IMG/VR virus record: IMGVR_UViG_2690316131_000003
DNA: 4,754 nt
From: a virus
Lineage: Duplodnaviria; Heunggongvirae; Uroviricota; Caudoviricetes
Direction: 5' to 3' (one strand)
Shown piece by piece: positions 1-4,754 of this stretch (within the stretch, counting starts at the first letter, position 1; every line of letters starts with the position of its first letter). Made by a program: the position numbers and the translations under genes. The notes beneath the pieces are model-generated. The model ran no database searches, was not told where the DNA came from, and saw only the letters and a list, made by a program, of their open reading frames with translations.

Positions 1-140
1 TCCCGGGCAACCTGTGATGAAGACTGATTAATCGCCGTTGTGGCCACGCGGTTAATCGTCATTGCTGAAGCCGCCGGAATGGCGTTTTTACGAACCCGGC
101 TCAGATTATCAATCGCCTGAGCAAGCCCTTTTATCGCCAT
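1..140 (-). CDS. Z: Minor tail protein Z-like (lambda gpZ homolog), N-terminal 46 codons only; gene continues beyond the left window edge
   Basis: ATG at 140..138 (plus-strand cat), preceded by AGGGTGA-like RBS; translation MAIKGLAQAIDNLSRVRKNAIPAASAMTINRVATTAINQSSSQVAR matches my recollection of the lambda gpZ N-terminus (MAIKGLEQAVENLSR...); sits immediately downstream of FII as in lambda. Confidence 0.75.
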   Translation of the reverse strand, partial: MAIKGLAQAIDNLSRVRKNAIPAASAMTINRVATTAINQSSSQVAR

Positions 141-155
141 AATTTCACCCTGCGT

Positions 156-509
156 TTATCGTCGCCGGTTAACAGCGGGTGGTTGCCCACGGTTGAGCCA
201 GAGATAACAGCTTCCCCCGTCATCCGGAGAAACACGATCCACCCAGAACATCTCGCCGTTAATGGTCAGCGTGTCACCACGCCGCACGGCACGCACCGTA
301 TCCGTCCGCACAAATAATGACGGGCTGCTTCCTTCAATACGGACCCCGCCACCGGCAAAACCCAGCGACTCCGGATCGTCAAAAACCCCCTGAACTTCGC
401 CGCCACGTTGTGCCCCCGAGGTGAACTGCGCACAGAGCCCCATCACTTCAACAATCGTTCTGTCCACCCCGGCAAGGGCAGCATCAAAGGAATTCTCAAA
501 ATCACGCAT
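156..509 (-). CDS. FII: Head-tail joining / head completion protein FII (lambda gpFII-like), 117 aa
   Basis: ORF of 117 aa; C-terminal ...FWVDRVSPDDGGSCYLWLNRGQPPAVNRRR matches the lambda gpFII C-terminus as I recall it; start ATG overlaps the FI stop in the sequence ATGCGTGA (translational coupling); correct synteny position. Confidence 0.9.
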   Translation of the reverse strand: MRDFENSFDAALAGVDRTIVEVMGLCAQFTSGAQRGGEVQGVFDDPESLGFAGGGVRIEGSSPSLFVRTDTVRAVRRGDTLTINGEMFWVDRVSPDDGGSCYLWLNRGQPPAVNRRR

Positions 510-870
510 AAACGGCCATTCCGCTCCTAACCATGTCTTTTGCCACTGAGGGGGGCATCAGAATTACTCTGCCAGCATCAACATGCTCAACAGGCTCACC
601 TGTTTCATCGTCAACACCGCACAGGTAAAAACACTTCAGAAGCCTGATACGTTCCAGAATACCAACGTCATCCTCACCGGTGTGCCTGCATGCCTGCTCA
701 TGAACGGTATCATCAACATCTGCGATTTCATTTTCCGAGGCGCAAACCTCCTCTTCCCACTCTGCCACACGCTGTGCGATATCCGCAGCACTCCCCGACA
801 TATCCGCCTCGCGCCCCAGCAGACCAGCCAGTTCACGAAGACGTTTCTGATTTTCTTCTTTTGTTGCCAT
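502..870 (-). CDS. FI: DNA-packaging / head assembly protein FI (lambda gpFI-like), about 122 aa from the ATG at 870
   Basis: ORF track 502..918; I place the start at the internal ATG 870..868 (MATKEENQKRLRELAGLLG...) because it has a GGAG RBS 6 nt upstream, lies downstream of the E terminator hairpin, and aligns with the lambda gpFI N-terminus (MTKDELIARLRSLGEQL...); the 918 start is a GTG that overlaps the E stop region with no RBS. Confidence 0.8.
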   Translation of the reverse strand: MATKEENQKRLRELAGLLGREADMSGSAADIAQRVAEWEEEVCASENEIADVDDTVHEQACRHTGEDDVGILERIRLLKCFYLCGVDDETGEPVEHVDAGRVILMPPSVAKDMVRSGMAVYA

Positions 871-885
871 ATCCAGCTCCCTGTG

Positions 886-913
886 AAAAAAACACGGGGG
901 CATTTCGCCCCCG
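886..913 (-). terminator. Intrinsic-terminator-like hairpin plus U-tract immediately 3' of the major capsid gene
   Basis: On the minus strand: 7-bp all-G/C stem CGGGGGC (plus 907..913 / 895..901), 5-nt loop GAAAU, then UG and seven U (plus A-run 886..892); begins 8 nt after the E stop codon and ends just before the FI RBS. Confidence 0.6.
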
Positions 914-921
914 CTCACGGA

Positions 922-1950
922 TTATTTCACCTGTACCACCACAAACTCATCCGGATCCGGCAGCACCATCAGCGGCGCGGACTGCGTCATGGTGAATTCA
1001 CAGGACGGATCGCCCACGGTCAGCCAGTGTTTCGGGTAACGGGAAGAAGCCACCACTCCTTCAGACAACGCCTGTGCATCCTTAATGGCTCCATAGCAAC
1101 GAATCCCCTCTGCTGCCGTATTCCCCAGCACCAGCGTGCCCTCCGGCAGATAACGTTTTTCGGTACCGTCCTCTGCCACATAAGACGTTTTCGCTACCAC
1201 AATGGCCAGATCGCCGTAATACCCCTTGAAGGATACCACTGCGCCCAGATCTTTCACTGCCGTTTCGAGTTGTGAATTTGAACCGCGACGGGTATCCATT
1301 TTTTCGCGGAAAAGCTTAAAGCCATTCAGCAGACGCCAGACGGTACCGTCCATAATGGCAATATTCACAAGACCACTGGCCTGATCACAGAAAAGGTCGA
1401 TATCATATGTCGGGTCGAACGTGTCACGATCCTGTTTTGACCACTCCTTACCGCTACCTTGTATGATGTTATTCTTCGTCGATCGGCCAAAATCGACTTC
1501 AATTTTCTCGAACTGGTCTCCTTCCATCGTATATTTGCCATACAGCACGGCATTCACCGCCTGCATTTCTTCCACCTGCACAATAGCGTGCTCTTCCTGT
1601 TTGAGGTTATCAGTGATGATACGCAGACGACGGTAGGCCGGGTCGTTCAGCTGAGCCGGATCTTCACCGGGAAGGCGCTCAACCGCCTGCTGGTAATTAA
1701 ATTCGTGTTTCGGCTTGACGTAGCCCGGACGCAACACGCGGGTTTCACCACCACGATGGCGCAGCACTTTTCCTTCAACGATCGGGGAGACATAGGCCGC
1801 CACCGGCGTTTTTCCGGTAATTTTGTCCAGCATCACCTCTTCGGTGTGGAAATTCACCGTACGGCGGAAAAACAGCTCCAGAAATAGCGCACGGAATTTC
1901 ACTTTTTGTTCGGTATAACCGAGTAACTGGCGGGTCGTAAACAATCCCAT
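922..1950 (-). CDS. E: Major capsid protein E (lambda gpE-like), 342 aa
   Basis: 342-aa ORF; strong similarity along the whole length to lambda gpE as recalled (e.g. YVSPIV, PGYVKPKHE, DPAYRRLRI, VEEMQAV, TRRGSNSQLETAVKDLG, GDLAIVV, SAPLMVLPDPDEFV); AAAGGAA RBS about 8 nt upstream of the ATG at 1950. Confidence 0.95.
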   Translation of the reverse strand: MGLFTTRQLLGYTEQKVKFRALFLELFFRRTVNFHTEEVMLDKITGKTPVAAYVSPIVEGKVLRHRGGETRVLRPGYVKPKHEFNYQQAVERLPGEDPAQLNDPAYRRLRIITDNLKQEEHAIVQVEEMQAVNAVLYGKYTMEGDQFEKIEVDFGRSTKNNIIQGSGKEWSKQDRDTFDPTYDIDLFCDQASGLVNIAIMDGTVWRLLNGFKLFREKMDTRRGSNSQLETAVKDLGAVVSFKGYYGDLAIVVAKTSYVAEDGTEKRYLPEGTLVLGNTAAEGIRCYGAIKDAQALSEGVVASSRYPKHWLTVGDPSCEFTMTQSAPLMVLPDPDEFVVVQVK

Positions 1951-1978
1951 AAATCAGTTCCTTTCATTCAGAAATCAG

Positions 1979-2000
1979 TCAGGCCACCATGGTGGCCTGA
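1979..2000 (-). promoter_or_regulatory. 22-bp perfect palindrome (potential RNA hairpin, 9-bp stem, CAUG loop) in the D-E intergenic region
   Basis: TCAGGCCACCA|TGGTGGCCTGA reads identically on both strands; starts 7 nt after the D stop; no strong U-tract follows, so not a canonical terminator. Confidence 0.4.
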
Positions 2001-2007
2001 TAACGTG

Positions 2008-2355
2008 TTACGGCAGAGCCGCGTGACTCAGGGCTGTGCCGGCAAAGGCATTTGCCTTTTTGTGTTCATCCACACTGTCAGGCCAGCGGATTGCCTCCGT
2101 CGCAAAGGTCCCCGACTTGTAATAGGTCAGCACCGTCTCTGTGCCTTCAAGCGGCAGTACCAGTATGCCAACCGCACTACCGGCTTTCTGTCCATCCCAG
2201 ACCACCAGTTTCCCGGTGGCTTCATCCAGCATCAGGGGCGTCAGAGCCGGTGTTGCAGAAGAAATCCCGCTGCTGCCTGTGGCGGTATGAGCCGGATCAT
2301 TACCAGCAAAAATACGTACTTCCGCACGCTGTTCAGTGATGGTTTTCGTCACCAT
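2008..2355 (-). CDS. D: Head decoration protein D (lambda gpD-like), 115 aa
   Basis: 115-aa ORF; motifs DPAHTATG, PLMLD, KLVVWDG, VGIL, YKSGTF match the lambda gpD pattern as recalled; GAGGT RBS upstream of the ATG at 2355; position between C and E. Confidence 0.92.
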   Translation of the reverse strand: MVTKTITEQRAEVRIFAGNDPAHTATGSSGISSATPALTPLMLDEATGKLVVWDGQKAGSAVGILVLPLEGTETVLTYYKSGTFATEAIRWPDSVDEHKKANAFAGTALSHAALP

Positions 2356-2391
2356 TTTGTTAAAACCTCATATTGATGGTCAGCACTGACT

Positions 2392-2994
2392 TCATGGCAT
2401 GGCCATGAGCATTTTCACGTCCGCATCACCGTCTGCTGACGTCTGTGACACGCCACCCCGCACCGCTGCCGGTGAATGATTCGCCATGAAATGTTCAAAC
2501 AGGGCGGTTGTGGATGCAGAGACCGGTTCGGCCTTACCTGATCCCGCAGCCAGCACAGCCCGGGCGTTCTCCACGGTCATTCCCGGGCAGGCAGCCAGTT
2601 TTTCAGCCTGCGCTTCTGCCCCTTTTGCCTCATCCAGGGCCATGATCTGATCACGAAGTGAGGGCCCGGCATCCGCCAGTGGTGCAGCCGCCAGGATCGG
2701 GCGGGCTTTTTCCACCGTCATCTCCGGCATCGCCGCCAGCGTTGCCGCCAGTTGTTCACGACCGTTCGCTTCTTCACACGCCATAATGCGATCGGCTTCA
2801 CTCTGCGCGGATGCCACCGGCTGCTGCGGTGCCGCCGCGGCCAGAATCGCCCGGGCCTGTTCAACGCTCATGCCCTGTTGCCCTGCCAGCATCGTGGCAA
2901 GCTGTTCACGTCCTTTCGCTTCCTGACACGTCAGGATCCCCATCACTCGCTGGTTCTCCTGCACTGCGGCTTCCGTTGCAGTTAATTGCGGCAT
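2392..2994 (-). CDS. Nu3: Nu3-like scaffolding protein, translated from an in-frame internal start within C (200 aa, co-terminal with C)
   Basis: Internal ATG at 2994..2992 (Met302 of C), preceded by a consensus AGGAGG SD (plus 2999..3004 cctcct) 4 nt upstream; local context GGTMPQLTA... parallels the lambda Nu3 start inside C (established for lambda); downstream holds the scaffold motif. Confidence 0.6.
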   Translation of the reverse strand: MPQLTATEAAVQENQRVMGILTCQEAKGREQLATMLAGQQGMSVEQARAILAAAAPQQPVASAQSEADRIMACEEANGREQLAATLAAMPEMTVEKARPILAAAPLADAGPSLRDQIMALDEAKGAEAQAEKLAACPGMTVENARAVLAAGSGKAEPVSASTTALFEHFMANHSPAAVRGGVSQTSADGDADVKMLMAMP

Positions 2995-3897
2995 AGTGCC
3001 TCCTCTGACATTACTGTTCAGCGCCGTGGCCATCACACTGATGGCATCCGACGCATTGATTAATTCATCCGCCAGCCCGGCCTCAATGCCGGACTGACCT
3101 TCAAAAACGGCGGCCTCTGTTCCCGTGACGGCATCAACAGACAGACCGGTAAACATCGCCACTTTTTCGGCAAACATCCGGCGCGCCGCATCAATGCGCT
3201 GCTGCATGTCCTGGCGAACCTCTGCCGGTAAGGCTTCAAACTGATTGCCATCCACCTTGTGCGTCCCTGAGTAAATCAGCGTGATATCCACACCGGCCTG
3301 CGCCAGATGACCGGCATAGCTGACATGGCTCATCATCACGCCAATGGAGCCGATACGGGATGTCTGGGTAACCAGCCGTCGGGAGCAGGCCGACGCCAGC
3401 AGCATGGCTGCAGAACAGGCCGTGTCATTGCACAGTGCCCAGACCGGCTTCTGCTGACGGAGGCGGTAAATCATGTCAGCGCAGTCAAACGCGCCGGCGG
3501 CCTGCCCGCCCGGACTGTCAATGTCCAGCAGTACGCCCCGCACCTGGCTATCCGCCATTGCCTGCTGAAGACAGGCGACAATACCGTCATAGCCTGTCAT
3601 TCCGGAAAATGGCCGCATACCCCCCAGCCGGTGCACCAGCGTGCCGGTCACCGGCAGTACAGCAATACCGTTCACCACCCTGTAAACACGGGCCGGTCGT
3701 TTACCTCCGGCCATGTACTCGTCCGTTTCAGCCAGCATTCCGGGAGCATCAAACTGTACCTGCTGTTGTGGTACCGAAAGACTTGCTGCCCCCATCTCGC
3801 GCCCGAGCGCGCAAAAGAAAACCCGCGCATAGGCGGGCTCCAGAAGCAGCGGTTCATTGAATGCTGCGGCAATAATGTGTGAAAGATTACGTCTCAC
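2392..3897 (-). CDS. C: Head maturation protease / minor capsid protein C (S49 SppA-like peptidase family) with C-terminal scaffold (Nu3) domain, 501 aa
   Basis: 501-aa ORF; similarity to lambda gpC as recalled (FNEPL.LEPAYARVFF, NGIAVLPV.GTLV, SGMTGY.GI, LLD.D.PGG...AGAFDCAD.I, KPVWAL.ND..CSA..LLASA.SRRLVTQT.R.GSIGVMM.H, ITLIYSG.HKVDGN, GLADEL.N..DAI); start is GTG at 3897..3895 with GAGGAG about 10 nt upstream, overlapping the portal-fragment stop. Confidence 0.88.
   Translation of the reverse strand: MRRNLSHIIAAAFNEPLLLEPAYARVFFCALGREMGAASLSVPQQQVQFDAPGMLAETDEYMAGGKRPARVYRVVNGIAVLPVTGTLVHRLGGMRPFSGMTGYDGIVACLQQAMADSQVRGVLLDIDSPGGQAAGAFDCADMIYRLRQQKPVWALCNDTACSAAMLLASACSRRLVTQTSRIGSIGVMMSHVSYAGHLAQAGVDITLIYSGTHKVDGNQFEALPAEVRQDMQQRIDAARRMFAEKVAMFTGLSVDAVTGTEAAVFEGQSGIEAGLADELINASDAISVMATALNSNVRGGTMPQLTATEAAVQENQRVMGILTCQEAKGREQLATMLAGQQGMSVEQARAILAAAAPQQPVASAQSEADRIMACEEANGREQLAATLAAMPEMTVEKARPILAAAPLADAGPSLRDQIMALDEAKGAEAQAEKLAACPGMTVENARAVLAAGSGKAEPVSASTTALFEHFMANHSPAAVRGGVSQTSADGDADVKMLMAMP
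2512..2949 (-). repeat. Three diverged tandem copies of a ~47-53-aa scaffold motif inside the C/Nu3 coding region
   Basis: Protein-level repeats: RVMGILTCQEAKGREQLATMLAGQQGMSVEQARAILAAAAP / RIMACEEANGREQLAATLAAMPEMTVEKARPILAAAP / QIMALDEAKGAEAQAEKLAACPGMTVENARAVLAAG; DNA copies are clearly diverged, so not recent slippage. Confidence 0.6.
3088..3744. repeat. Direct repeat copy A (within the intact C gene), 657 bp, 654/657 identical to copy B
   Basis: Base-by-base comparison with 4098..4754 at constant offset 1010; only mismatches at 3583, 3619, 3681. Confidence 0.9.
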
Positions 3898-4090
3898 GTG
3901 GTGTTGTCTCCTCTTCCGGCCTGCGACTCTCCGCTATCTGCTGCTGATACGCCTGCGCTATCCACACCGGACGTGAGAGTCCGGCTTTTTGCCGCTCTGC
4001 AGATTCCCTGACCTGCTGGCGGAAAATGTCCTGATAATCCTCGCCCATCAGCGCCAGCTCTTTCTCATACGTGCTCAGTCCGGCCTCAAT
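3887..4090 (-). pseudogene. B: Orphan 3' fragment of the portal gene (lambda gpB-like C-terminal ~67 codons), fused out of frame to C-prime sequence
   Basis: Reading frame IEAGLSTYEKELALMGEDYQDIFRQQVRESAERQKAGLSRPVWIAQAYQQQIAESRRPEEETTPRET* ends with a stop (3887..3889) overlapping the C start, as at a portal-protease junction; it resembles what I recall of the lambda gpB C-terminus; upstream in the same frame (4091..4261) is out-of-frame C-prime sequence, not portal. Confidence 0.55.
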
Positions 4091-4107
4091 GCAAAAAGCC
4101 GGACTGA
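4075..4107. other. Duplication junction: 10-bp perfect inverted repeat (4075..4084 / 4098..4107) flanking a 13-nt spacer that contains the 7-bp novel insertion 4091..4097
   Basis: TCAGTCCGGC ... GCCGGACTGA; one arm lies in the portal fragment, the other in the C-prime copy; the native C copy has only an imperfect version (CAGCCCGGC / GCCGGACTG with 6-nt spacer). Confidence 0.8.
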
Positions 4108-4754
4108 CCTTCAAAAACGGCGGCCTCTGTTCCCGTGACGGCATCAACAGACAGACCGGTAAACATCGCCACTTTTTCGGCAAACATCCGGCGCGCCGCA
4201 TCAATGCGCTGCTGCATGTCCTGGCGAACCTCTGCCGGTAAGGCTTCAAACTGATTGCCATCCACCTTGTGCGTCCCTGAGTAAATCAGCGTGATATCCA
4301 CACCGGCCTGCGCCAGATGACCGGCATAGCTGACATGGCTCATCATCACGCCAATGGAGCCGATACGGGATGTCTGGGTAACCAGCCGTCGGGAGCAGGC
4401 CGACGCCAGCAGCATGGCTGCAGAACAGGCCGTGTCATTGCACAGTGCCCAGACCGGCTTCTGCTGACGGAGGCGGTAAATCATGTCAGCGCAGTCAAAC
4501 GCGCCGGCGGCCTGCCCGCCCGGACTGTCAATGTCCAGCAGTACGCCCCGCACCTGGCTATCCGCCATTGCCTGCTGAAGACAGGCGACAATGCCGTCAT
4601 AGCCTGTCATTCCGGAAAATGGCCGCATCCCCCCCAGCCGGTGCACCAGCGTGCCGGTCACCGGCAGTACAGCAATACCGTTCACCACCCGGTAAACACG
4701 GGCCGGTCGTTTACCTCCGGCCATGTACTCGTCCGTTTCAGCCAGCATTCCGGG
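4086..4754 (-). pseudogene. Truncated duplicate of the protease gene 5' portion (C-prime): would encode C residues about 52-269 in-window, then FLH-stop; 5' end beyond window
   Basis: ORF 4086..4748 translation is identical to C residues 54-269 then diverges after ...FEGQSG into FLH*; the frame stays open to the window edge (APGM... matches C residues 51-54); retains the putative protease core (CSAAMLLASA region) but lacks the scaffold domain. Confidence 0.7.
4098..4754. repeat. Direct repeat copy B (truncated C-prime), 657 bp, runs to the right window edge so its true length is unknown
   Basis: Identical to 3088..3744 except 4593, 4629, 4691; a further 11 nt (4080..4090 = 3077..3087) are identical at offset 1003 on the other side of the 7-bp insertion 4091..4097. 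Confidence 0.9.

What the first reader, a model, noticed from the sequence alone, without database searches (positions are those of the whole stretch)
3073..4754. About 1.0-kb direct duplication: truncated protease copy and orphan portal tail ahead of the intact C gene
Reading the minus strand 5' to 3', the window holds C-prime (5' part of the protease gene, 4754..4098), then a 7-bp insertion, then about 200 bp of portal 3' end, then the complete C gene. Copy B (4098..4754) matches copy A (3088..3744) at 654 of 657 positions. This is the structure expected from a tandem duplication whose unit is portal 3' end plus C 5' end (period about 1010 bp). A lambda-type head module normally has single copies, and head gene dosage and genome length are constrained by headful and cos packaging. 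The truncated C-prime keeps the peptidase core but loses the scaffold domain, so if expressed it could interfere with prohead assembly. The alternative is an assembly or chimeric artefact.
Basis: seen in the sequence. Interest (0 to 1): 0.75.

Follow-up and report, generated by a model that had tools for sequence, protein, structure and literature searches.

The report
Partial head-gene duplication in a prophage
A phage-21-type prophage head-gene cluster carries a unique extra 1-kb copy of "end of portal gene plus start of protease gene", joined at a scar typical of DNA-copying errors; it is a structural accident, or possibly an assembly problem, not a new biological system.

Summary
The repeat is real in the sequence. 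Positions 3088-3744 and 4098-4754 match at 654/657 with an offset of 1010 and run to the window edge. The genes are an E. coli phage-21/lambda-type head module.

Compared with single-copy relatives, the junction lies exactly at a natural 13-nt microhomology (CCGGCCTCAATGC). Portal and protease genes share it 1003 bp apart. A 7-nt filler, AAAAAGC, follows. With its flanks the filler forms a 15-nt inverted copy of portal-tail bases 3978-3992 (P about 6e-4), which is a template-switch signature.

The three differences between the copies are all synonymous natural polymorphisms. The copies are therefore different alleles, and both allele types co-occur in single E. coli genomes.

I found the junction in none of 5,426 complete E. 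coli genomes, and nowhere in the phage, viral, metagenome or species-representative collections.

Best reading (about 0.55): a real, private illegitimate exchange between two related prophage or phage genomes. It leaves a frameshifted protease fragment (270 residues + FLH) and an untranslated portal tail upstream of an intact protease-scaffold gene.

An assembly or library artefact (about 0.3) cannot be excluded without reads. The kind of event is known, so interest is low.

The parts
3088..3744 (-). Copy A of the repeat. It lies inside the intact protease-scaffold gene, codons about 52-270.
   Evidence: It is 100% identical to the allele in L002-L011 and L014.
4098..4754 (-). Copy B of the repeat. 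It runs to the window edge and differs from copy A at 4593, 4629 and 4691.
   Evidence: All three differences are synonymous. Two are shared with the L001/L013 allele. The third is found exactly in 16 complete E. coli records. No complete genome matches copy B at 100%.
4086..4754 (-). Truncated protease ORF (C'). It carries native residues 52-270, then Phe-Leu-His and a stop at 4086-4088. Its start lies off the window.
   Evidence: The Pfam Peptidase_S49 match covers only profile positions 3-128 of 154.
4093..4099 (.). 7-nt filler AAAAAGC at the junction. It shifts the C' reading frame.
   Evidence: Comparison with the native portal and native C sequences.
4080..4092 (.). Portal-side copy of the 13-nt microhomology CCGGCCTCAATGC. 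This is the last native portal sequence before the junction.
   Evidence: It is one of only two 13-nt direct repeats 200-3000 bp apart in 8 kb of the native locus.
3077..3089 (.). Protease-gene copy of the same 13-nt microhomology. Natively it lies 1003 bp from the portal copy.
3978..3992 (.). AGTCCGGCTTTTTGC in the portal tail. This is the likely template of the filler. Its reverse complement is 4091-4105.
   Evidence: Of all 16,384 possible 7-nt fillers, 0.06% give a match of at least 15 nt.
4075..4107 (.). New 10-bp perfect inverted repeat, TCAGTCCGGC / GCCGGACTGA, straddling the junction. It forms a hairpin with a 13-nt loop.
   Evidence: -11.1 kcal/mol, z = -4.15. The native C site gives only -6.7 kcal/mol.
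3887..4092 (-). Orphan portal 3' end: the last 67 codons plus the stop at 3887-3889. It is not in frame with C'. It contains the Shine-Dalgarno sequence GAGGAG for the intact C gene.
   Evidence: It has no Pfam match on its own.
2392..3897 (-). Intact protease-scaffold gene (lambda C / phage 21 gene 5 type), 501 aa with a GTG start.
   Evidence: The exact protein occurs in many E. coli assemblies.
2392..2994 (-). Nested scaffold gene (Nu3 type). It encodes the last 200 residues, with an ATG at residue 302.
   Evidence: By position, from the phage 21 annotation.
922..2355 (-). Context genes downstream: decoration gene (2008-2355) and major capsid gene (922-1950). Both are single copy.

Best explanation
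The window holds a real but private DNA rearrangement in a phage-21/lambda-type prophage head-gene cluster of E. coli. A replication or recombination error joined the protease gene of one genome, just after codon 270, to the last 67 codons of the portal gene of a closely related genome.

The join used a 13-nt sequence that both genes naturally share. It also picked up 7 extra bases, copied in inverted orientation from a site about 100 bp away. This is a short template switch.

The result is a direct repeat of about 1 kb: portal tail plus protease 5' part, 1003 bp plus 7 bp of filler.

Because the two copies are different natural alleles, the partners were most likely two related prophages or phage genomes in one cell. 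A single molecule copying itself is less likely.

Functionally it is a scar:
- The upstream copy encodes a frameshifted protease fragment with no scaffold domain. The fragment ends 20-23 residues before the end of the S49/SppA domain match.
- The portal tail is not translated in frame.
- The intact protease-scaffold gene keeps its own ribosome-binding site, and the decoration and capsid genes follow unchanged.

Shown: the repeat, the junction anatomy, the allele difference and the uniqueness. Inferred: that the event happened in vivo, that it involved two genomes, and the consequences for the proteins.
For: Repeat: 654/657 identity at an offset of 1010.

Junction against native single-copy loci:
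- native portal: ...CAGTCCGGCCTCAATGC|GCATCACC
- native C: ...CAGCCCGGCCTCAATGC|CGGACTGACC
- window: portal ...CCGGCCTCAATGC + AAAAAGC + CGGACTGACC...

The 13-mer is one of only two direct repeats of that length in 8 kb of the native locus.

The filler plus its flanks is a 15-nt reverse complement of 3978-3992. Only 0.06% of all possible 7-nt fillers give a match that long.

A de Bruijn mis-join would need a shared k-mer of about 21 nt or more (my knowledge of assemblers, not tested). It would not add a templated filler.

The three copy differences are all synonymous and occur naturally. E. coli C7 carries an exact copy-A allele and a copy-B-like allele in two prophages of one chromosome.

All ten long-context loci that carry the identical protease, and all related phages, have portal running directly into C, in single copy.

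Short-homology recombination (5-13 bp, RecET) and illegitimate recombination are established for lambdoid phages (PMC2327257). Template switching at inverted repeats is established in E. coli (PMC7202029).
Against: No reads are available, so neither the junction nor the linkage of copy B to it can be verified.

The repeat ends exactly at the window edge. If the window is a whole short contig, the extra copy sits at a contig end, where artefacts are common.

The junction occurs in no other public sequence. The junction ORFs are not on record. There is therefore no independent confirmation.

The upstream half of the presumed structure, namely the start of C' and the portal body, is unseen.

If the simplest two-switch model for the filler is right, the 13-nt microhomology is not strictly needed. 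The exact order of events is therefore unresolved.
Confidence: 0.55

Rival explanations
1. Assembly or library artefact. The strain carries two or more nearly identical phage-21-type prophages. The contig end was built from a chimeric molecule or read, or from a wrong walk through the repeat graph. In that case no genome in the culture carries C'-portal tail-C as a fixed structure.
For: The repeat reaches the window edge. Copy B is a different prophage allele from the rest of the window, as expected if an assembler changed prophage. Such modules occur up to 5-7 times per genome. Many assemblies carry this protease on short 2-10 kb contigs. The junction is unique in all collections.
Against: Graph mis-joins happen at shared k-mers much longer than 13 nt and do not create a 7-nt filler. 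Some physical molecule with this junction must have been read. Ligation chimeras lack microhomology. The junction has both a 13-nt microhomology and a templated filler, which points to a polymerase or recombination event. A pure unitig cannot contain the same 495-bp stretch twice, so the assembler had linking information across the repeat.
Confidence: 0.3
2. Classical intramolecular tandem duplication within one prophage, by slipped mispairing at the 13-nt repeat. One copy was later changed by gene conversion from another resident prophage, or by a second template-switch event that added the filler.
For: The local structure and the period (1003 + 7) are exactly those of a tandem duplication. 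A clean junction would create a hairpin with a 10-bp stem and a 6-nt loop, which could provoke a secondary template switch. The first 495 bp after the junction are identical between the copies, and the differences cluster within 100 bp, like a conversion tract.
Against: It needs two or three successive events where one inter-genome exchange suffices. Tandem duplications with 1 kb of perfect homology are unstable to homologous recombination (established for lambda duplications; my knowledge, not tested here). No relative carries the clean junction.
Confidence: 0.15

Closest known systems
Tandem duplications of bacteriophage lambda (classical lambda genetics) and microhomology-mediated tandem duplications in bacteria
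   Same: Head-to-tail repeat of an internal genome segment. There is a novel junction at a short shared sequence. The size is well within cos-packaging tolerance. The repeat is expected to be unstable to homologous recombination.
   Different: The two copies are different alleles. The junction carries a templated 7-nt filler. The second unit is only partly visible, so completeness of the tandem structure is unproven.
Illegitimate or short-homology recombination between lambdoid phages as a source of mosaicism (discussed in PMC2327257; RecET acting on 5-13 bp)
   Same: A join between two related lambdoid genomes at a 13-nt homology that is out of register. This is what the illegitimate-recombination model for phage mosaicism (PMC2327257) would produce before selection.
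   Different: Here the partners are over 99% identical and the exchange is between non-equivalent positions of the same module. It produces a duplication and not a new gene combination.
Replicative template switching (quasipalindrome-associated template switch in E. coli, PMC7202029; FoSTeS/MMBIR-type complex junctions)
   Same: A short inserted sequence that is an inverted copy of a site about 100 bp away, flanked by microhomology. A perfect inverted repeat is created at the junction.
   Different: Classical quasipalindrome events only homogenise hairpin arms. Here the switch is coupled to a 1-kb jump.
Phage 21 / lambda head module (portal B, protease-scaffold C with nested Nu3, D/shp, E)
   Same: Gene order, sizes (501-aa protease with a nested 200-aa scaffold), 94-96% DNA identity to the closest phages (93.7% to phage 21 itself), and the S49 peptidase domain.
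   Different: An extra C' fragment and an orphan portal tail lie upstream of C. All relatives examined are single copy.

Membership tests
Tandem duplication | Two adjacent direct copies of one segment | tested here: met
   654/657 identity at an offset of 1010, with the copies separated only by the rest of the unit.
Tandem duplication | A novel junction joining the end of the unit to its beginning, absent from single-copy relatives | tested here: met
   The junction at 4080-4100 was compared with native loci. It is absent from 5,426 complete E. coli genomes and from three contig collections.
Tandem duplication | The second unit is complete and continues into the normal upstream sequence (portal tail, then portal body) | not testable with these tools
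   The window ends at 4754, 353 bp short of a full second unit. The source contig could not be found.
Tandem duplication | The copies derive from the same molecule (identical at birth) | tested here: not met
   There are three differences, all synonymous natural polymorphisms of another allele.
Microhomology-mediated / template-switch rearrangement | Short sequence identity shared by the two parental sites at the breakpoint | tested here: met
   The 13-nt CCGGCCTCAATGC is present natively in both portal and C. It is one of two such repeats in 8 kb.
Microhomology-mediated / template-switch rearrangement | Inserted bases templated from a nearby site | tested here: met
   The 15-nt stretch 4091-4105 is the reverse complement of 3978-3992. 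Enumeration of all possible fillers gives P = 6e-4.
Microhomology-mediated / template-switch rearrangement | Arose in vivo during replication or repair | not testable with these tools
   This needs reads, PCR or related isolates.
Lambda/phage-21 prohead protease-scaffold (gpC, Peptidase_S49) | S49 peptidase domain above the Pfam threshold, with a Ser/Lys dyad | tested here: met
   PF01343 scores 120 bits against a cutoff of 24.9, over residues 146-293. The protein aligns to SppA 3RST. The dyad assignment of Ser162/Lys214 is by motif and alignment and is an inference.
Lambda/phage-21 prohead protease-scaffold (gpC, Peptidase_S49) | Nested in-frame scaffold gene in the C-terminal part, and portal-C-D-E synteny | tested here: met
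   Phage 21 annotation, with an ATG at residue 302. Synteny is shown.
Assembly artefact (repeat-induced mis-join) | Junction at a long sequence shared by the joined parts, with no extra bases | tested here: not met
   Only 13 nt are shared, and a 7-nt filler is present.
Assembly artefact (repeat-induced mis-join) | Junction unsupported by reads, or at an anomalous contig end | not testable with these tools
   No reads are available. The repeat does end at the window edge, which is compatible with an artefact but does not show one.

The most novel reading that the evidence does not exclude
The window captures, essentially unselected, a fresh out-of-register illegitimate exchange between two co-resident phage-21-type prophages. 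The exchange was made by a double template switch. The hybrid may still be an inducible phage. It would then express a scaffold-less S49 protease fragment, which could poison or modulate prohead maturation of all related prophages in the cell.
Probability: 0.12. Interest if true: 0.45.

Novelty: new member of a known kind. Interest (0 to 1): 0.2.

Why it matters
If real, this is a clean natural example of how lambdoid phage genomes are rearranged: short homology plus template switching between co-resident prophages. That process is usually inferred only from ancient mosaic boundaries.

It also flags a prophage whose head operon now contains a truncated protease gene. This may affect inducibility or the packaging of neighbouring Stx-type prophages.

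Practically, it is a reminder that near-identical head modules in STEC genomes are hot spots both for true rearrangements and for assembly errors. It reveals no new type of system.

Tried and rejected
(1) Finding the source contig or any second occurrence.
- The junction 26-mer gave zero matches in genome, viral and metagenome contigs.
- The hypothetical clean junction also gave zero.
- A 141-nt junction query against the complete E. coli genomes found no place covering 80% or more.
- Exact look-ups of the C' fragment (222 and 220 aa) and of the 124-aa junction ORF found nothing on record.

(2) Sequencing errors as the cause of the three differences. Rejected: all three are synonymous, and all are natural alleles.

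(3) Contig-end logic. I tested whether the window ends coincide with points where known prophage alleles diverge. No such signal appeared among L002-L011, so this is uninformative.

(4) A regulatory role for the junction. No promoter-like site was found. The only terminator-like hit (3967-3984, + strand) is on the antisense strand, inside native portal sequence, and at the chance level. The junction hairpin has no T-run after it.

(5) The short repeat families D2-D4 and inverted pairs I1-I5. These are imperfect matches of 20-31 nt and I treat them as chance.

(6) A packaging-size constraint. Rejected, because 1 kb is small against the 42.9-54.4 kb range of related phages.

(7) One script was empty and one timed out. 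One search repeats the latter.

Full report
**Observation**

A self-comparison at an offset of 1010 shows that window 3088-3744 and 4098-4754 are identical except at 3583/4593, 3619/4629 and 3681/4691. The identity continues to the last base of the window.

ORF listing and comparison with annotated records identify the genes, all on the minus strand:
- FII (156-509)
- FI (about 502-870)
- major capsid protein (922-1950)
- decoration protein (2008-2355)
- a 501-aa S49 peptidase/scaffold gene (2392-3897)
- upstream of that gene, the last 67 codons of a portal gene (3887-4092)
- then a second, partial copy of the protease gene (4086-4754)

The module is that of phage 21 and related E. coli phages, at 94-96% DNA identity. 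Positions 1-4092 are 99.98% identical to prophages in several Shiga-toxin-type E. coli genomes.

**What single-copy relatives show**

Portal runs directly into the protease gene, once, in the complete genome F2_81 (L001) and in all ten long-context loci that encode exactly the same 501-aa protease. The same holds in all related phages.

I aligned the window with the native locus:
- native portal reads ...GTGCTCAGT-CCGGCCTCAATGC-GCATCACC...
- native protease reads ...CCGCCAGC-CCGGCCTCAATGC-CGGACTGACC...
- the window reads ...GTGCTCAGT-CCGGCCTCAATGC-AAAAAGC-CGGACTGACC...

The join therefore sits exactly at a 13-nt sequence that the two genes share naturally, 1003 bp apart. In both genes this sequence encodes Ile-Glu-Ala-Gly. 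Seven extra bases lie at the join.

In 8 kb of the native locus there are only two direct 13-mers spaced 200-3000 bp apart, and this is one of them.

**The filler**

The filler is not random. GCAAAAAGCCGGACT (4091-4105) is the exact reverse complement of 3978-3992 in the portal tail, about 100 bp away.

I enumerated all 16,384 possible 7-nt fillers. Only 0.06% give a contiguous match of 15 nt or more anywhere in 12 kb of the native locus on either strand.

The join also brings together TCAGTCCGGC and GCCGGACTGA. They form a 10-bp perfect hairpin stem (-11.1 kcal/mol, z = -4.15).

A 13-nt microhomology with a short inverted templated insertion is the signature of polymerase template switching or short-homology recombination. 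It is not the signature of ligation or of a k-mer-graph mis-join.

Template switching at inverted repeats is documented in E. coli (PMC7202029). Recombination at 5-13 bp by RecET, and illegitimate recombination among lambdoid phages, are also documented (PMC2327257).

The exact order of switches cannot be resolved. A two-switch model explains the filler with 2-nt and 8-nt microhomologies. A slippage event at the 13-mer followed by a secondary hairpin-driven switch is equally possible.

**The two copies are different alleles**

The three differences are all synonymous: codon 105 GGT/GGC, codon 93 GGT/GGG and codon 73 AGG/CGG.

Copy A is 100% identical to the allele in L002-L011. Two of the copy-B variants are those of the L001 allele. 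The third occurs exactly in 16 complete E. coli records.

No complete genome has copy B exactly; the best has one mismatch.

In one complete chromosome (E. coli C7), one prophage carries an exact copy-A allele and another carries a copy-B-like allele.

Sequencing error is therefore excluded as the source of the differences. A recent in-place duplication of one molecule is not the simplest origin.

Three origins remain:
- an out-of-register exchange between two related prophage or phage genomes
- a duplication followed by gene conversion
- an assembler that crossed a real junction and then followed another prophage's allele

**Consequences for the genes**

The filler shifts the frame. The upstream copy reads ...FEGQSG, ending at residue 270, then FLH and a stop at 4086-4088.

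In the intact protein the Pfam S49 match spans residues 146-293. In the fragment it stops at profile position 128 of 154. The alignment to the B. subtilis SppA structure runs to residue 290.

By motif and alignment, the likely Ser162/Lys214 dyad is retained. This is an inference. The fragment lacks the residues that align to the last 20-23 positions of the S49/SppA domain match. The whole scaffold part is also lost. In phage 21 the nested scaffold gene is the last 200 codons, starting at Met302, which is window 2994.

Without the filler, the join would have produced an in-frame protease-portal fusion.

The portal tail is open only as the end of an out-of-frame 124-aa ORF and has no domain match.

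The intact protease gene keeps its GAGGAG ribosome-binding site inside the retained portal tail. It and the downstream genes should therefore still be expressed; this is an inference.

Related phages range from 42.9 to 54.4 kb. By my knowledge of lambda cos packaging, an extra 1 kb is tolerated.

**Real or artefact?**

For a real event: a physical molecule with this junction must have existed, because assemblers do not invent a templated filler at a 13-nt microhomology. In addition, a contig that contains the same 495-bp stretch twice needs linking information.

For an artefact:
- the extra copy ends at the window edge
- the far side of the junction is another prophage's allele
- these head modules are present up to 5-7 times per genome and typically fragment assemblies
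- there is no second occurrence anywhere

I put about 0.55 on a real inter-genome exchange, 0.15 on a one-genome duplication later modified, and 0.3 on an artefact.

**Comparison with known things and verdict**

Partial tandem duplications in lambda, microhomology-mediated duplications in bacteria, template-switch insertions and inter-prophage recombination in STEC are all established. This is a new, private instance with an unusually informative junction. It is not a new kind of element.

It has no evident function. At most, a truncated protease might interfere with prohead maturation, which is speculative.

Interest is low (0.2). The most novel reading is that of a freshly formed hybrid phage expressing a scaffold-less protease fragment that modulates the assembly of sibling prophages. 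It has low probability (about 0.12) and moderate interest (0.45).

Noticed in passing
window 2536-2946 (minus strand; protease-scaffold residues 318-454): The scaffold (Nu3-like) part contains three tandem repeats of about 37-40 aa. The consensus is roughly IMa..EA.G.EQLA..LA....MTVE.AR.ILAAA, and the repeats are separated by short linkers.
   Followed up: partly
window 1707-1951: A 245-bp stretch at the 5' end of the major capsid gene matches Aeromonas phage AP1 (MT713136.1, 254 kb) at 96.7%, near the end of that record (250152-250396). This looks like contamination or a chimeric assembly in that public record.
   Followed up: no
window 509-745 (FI gene): The alignment to the prophage of E. 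coli F2_81 (L001) breaks between 509 and 745. The flanks align at 95.6-96.7%. FI appears to be a mosaic or variable segment of this head module.
   Followed up: no
window 2593: This is the only difference between window 1-4092 and several STEC prophages (L002-L004, L006, L008-L010). It is a synonymous change in codon 435 of the protease-scaffold gene, GCT versus GCG.
   Followed up: partly
L013 (NZ_CP010240.1 4129656-4131248): In E. coli C7, the prophage carrying the copy-B-like protease allele has a portal gene annotated as a frameshifted pseudogene. This is an example of decay in these co-resident head modules.
   Followed up: no
window 3887-4261 (minus strand): A 124-aa ORF starts in an alternative frame of C' and reads across the junction into the portal frame, ending with the authentic portal C-terminus. 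The run of five T in the filler lies where a +1/-2 slip from the C' frame would enter this frame. There is no evidence that this happens.
   Followed up: no
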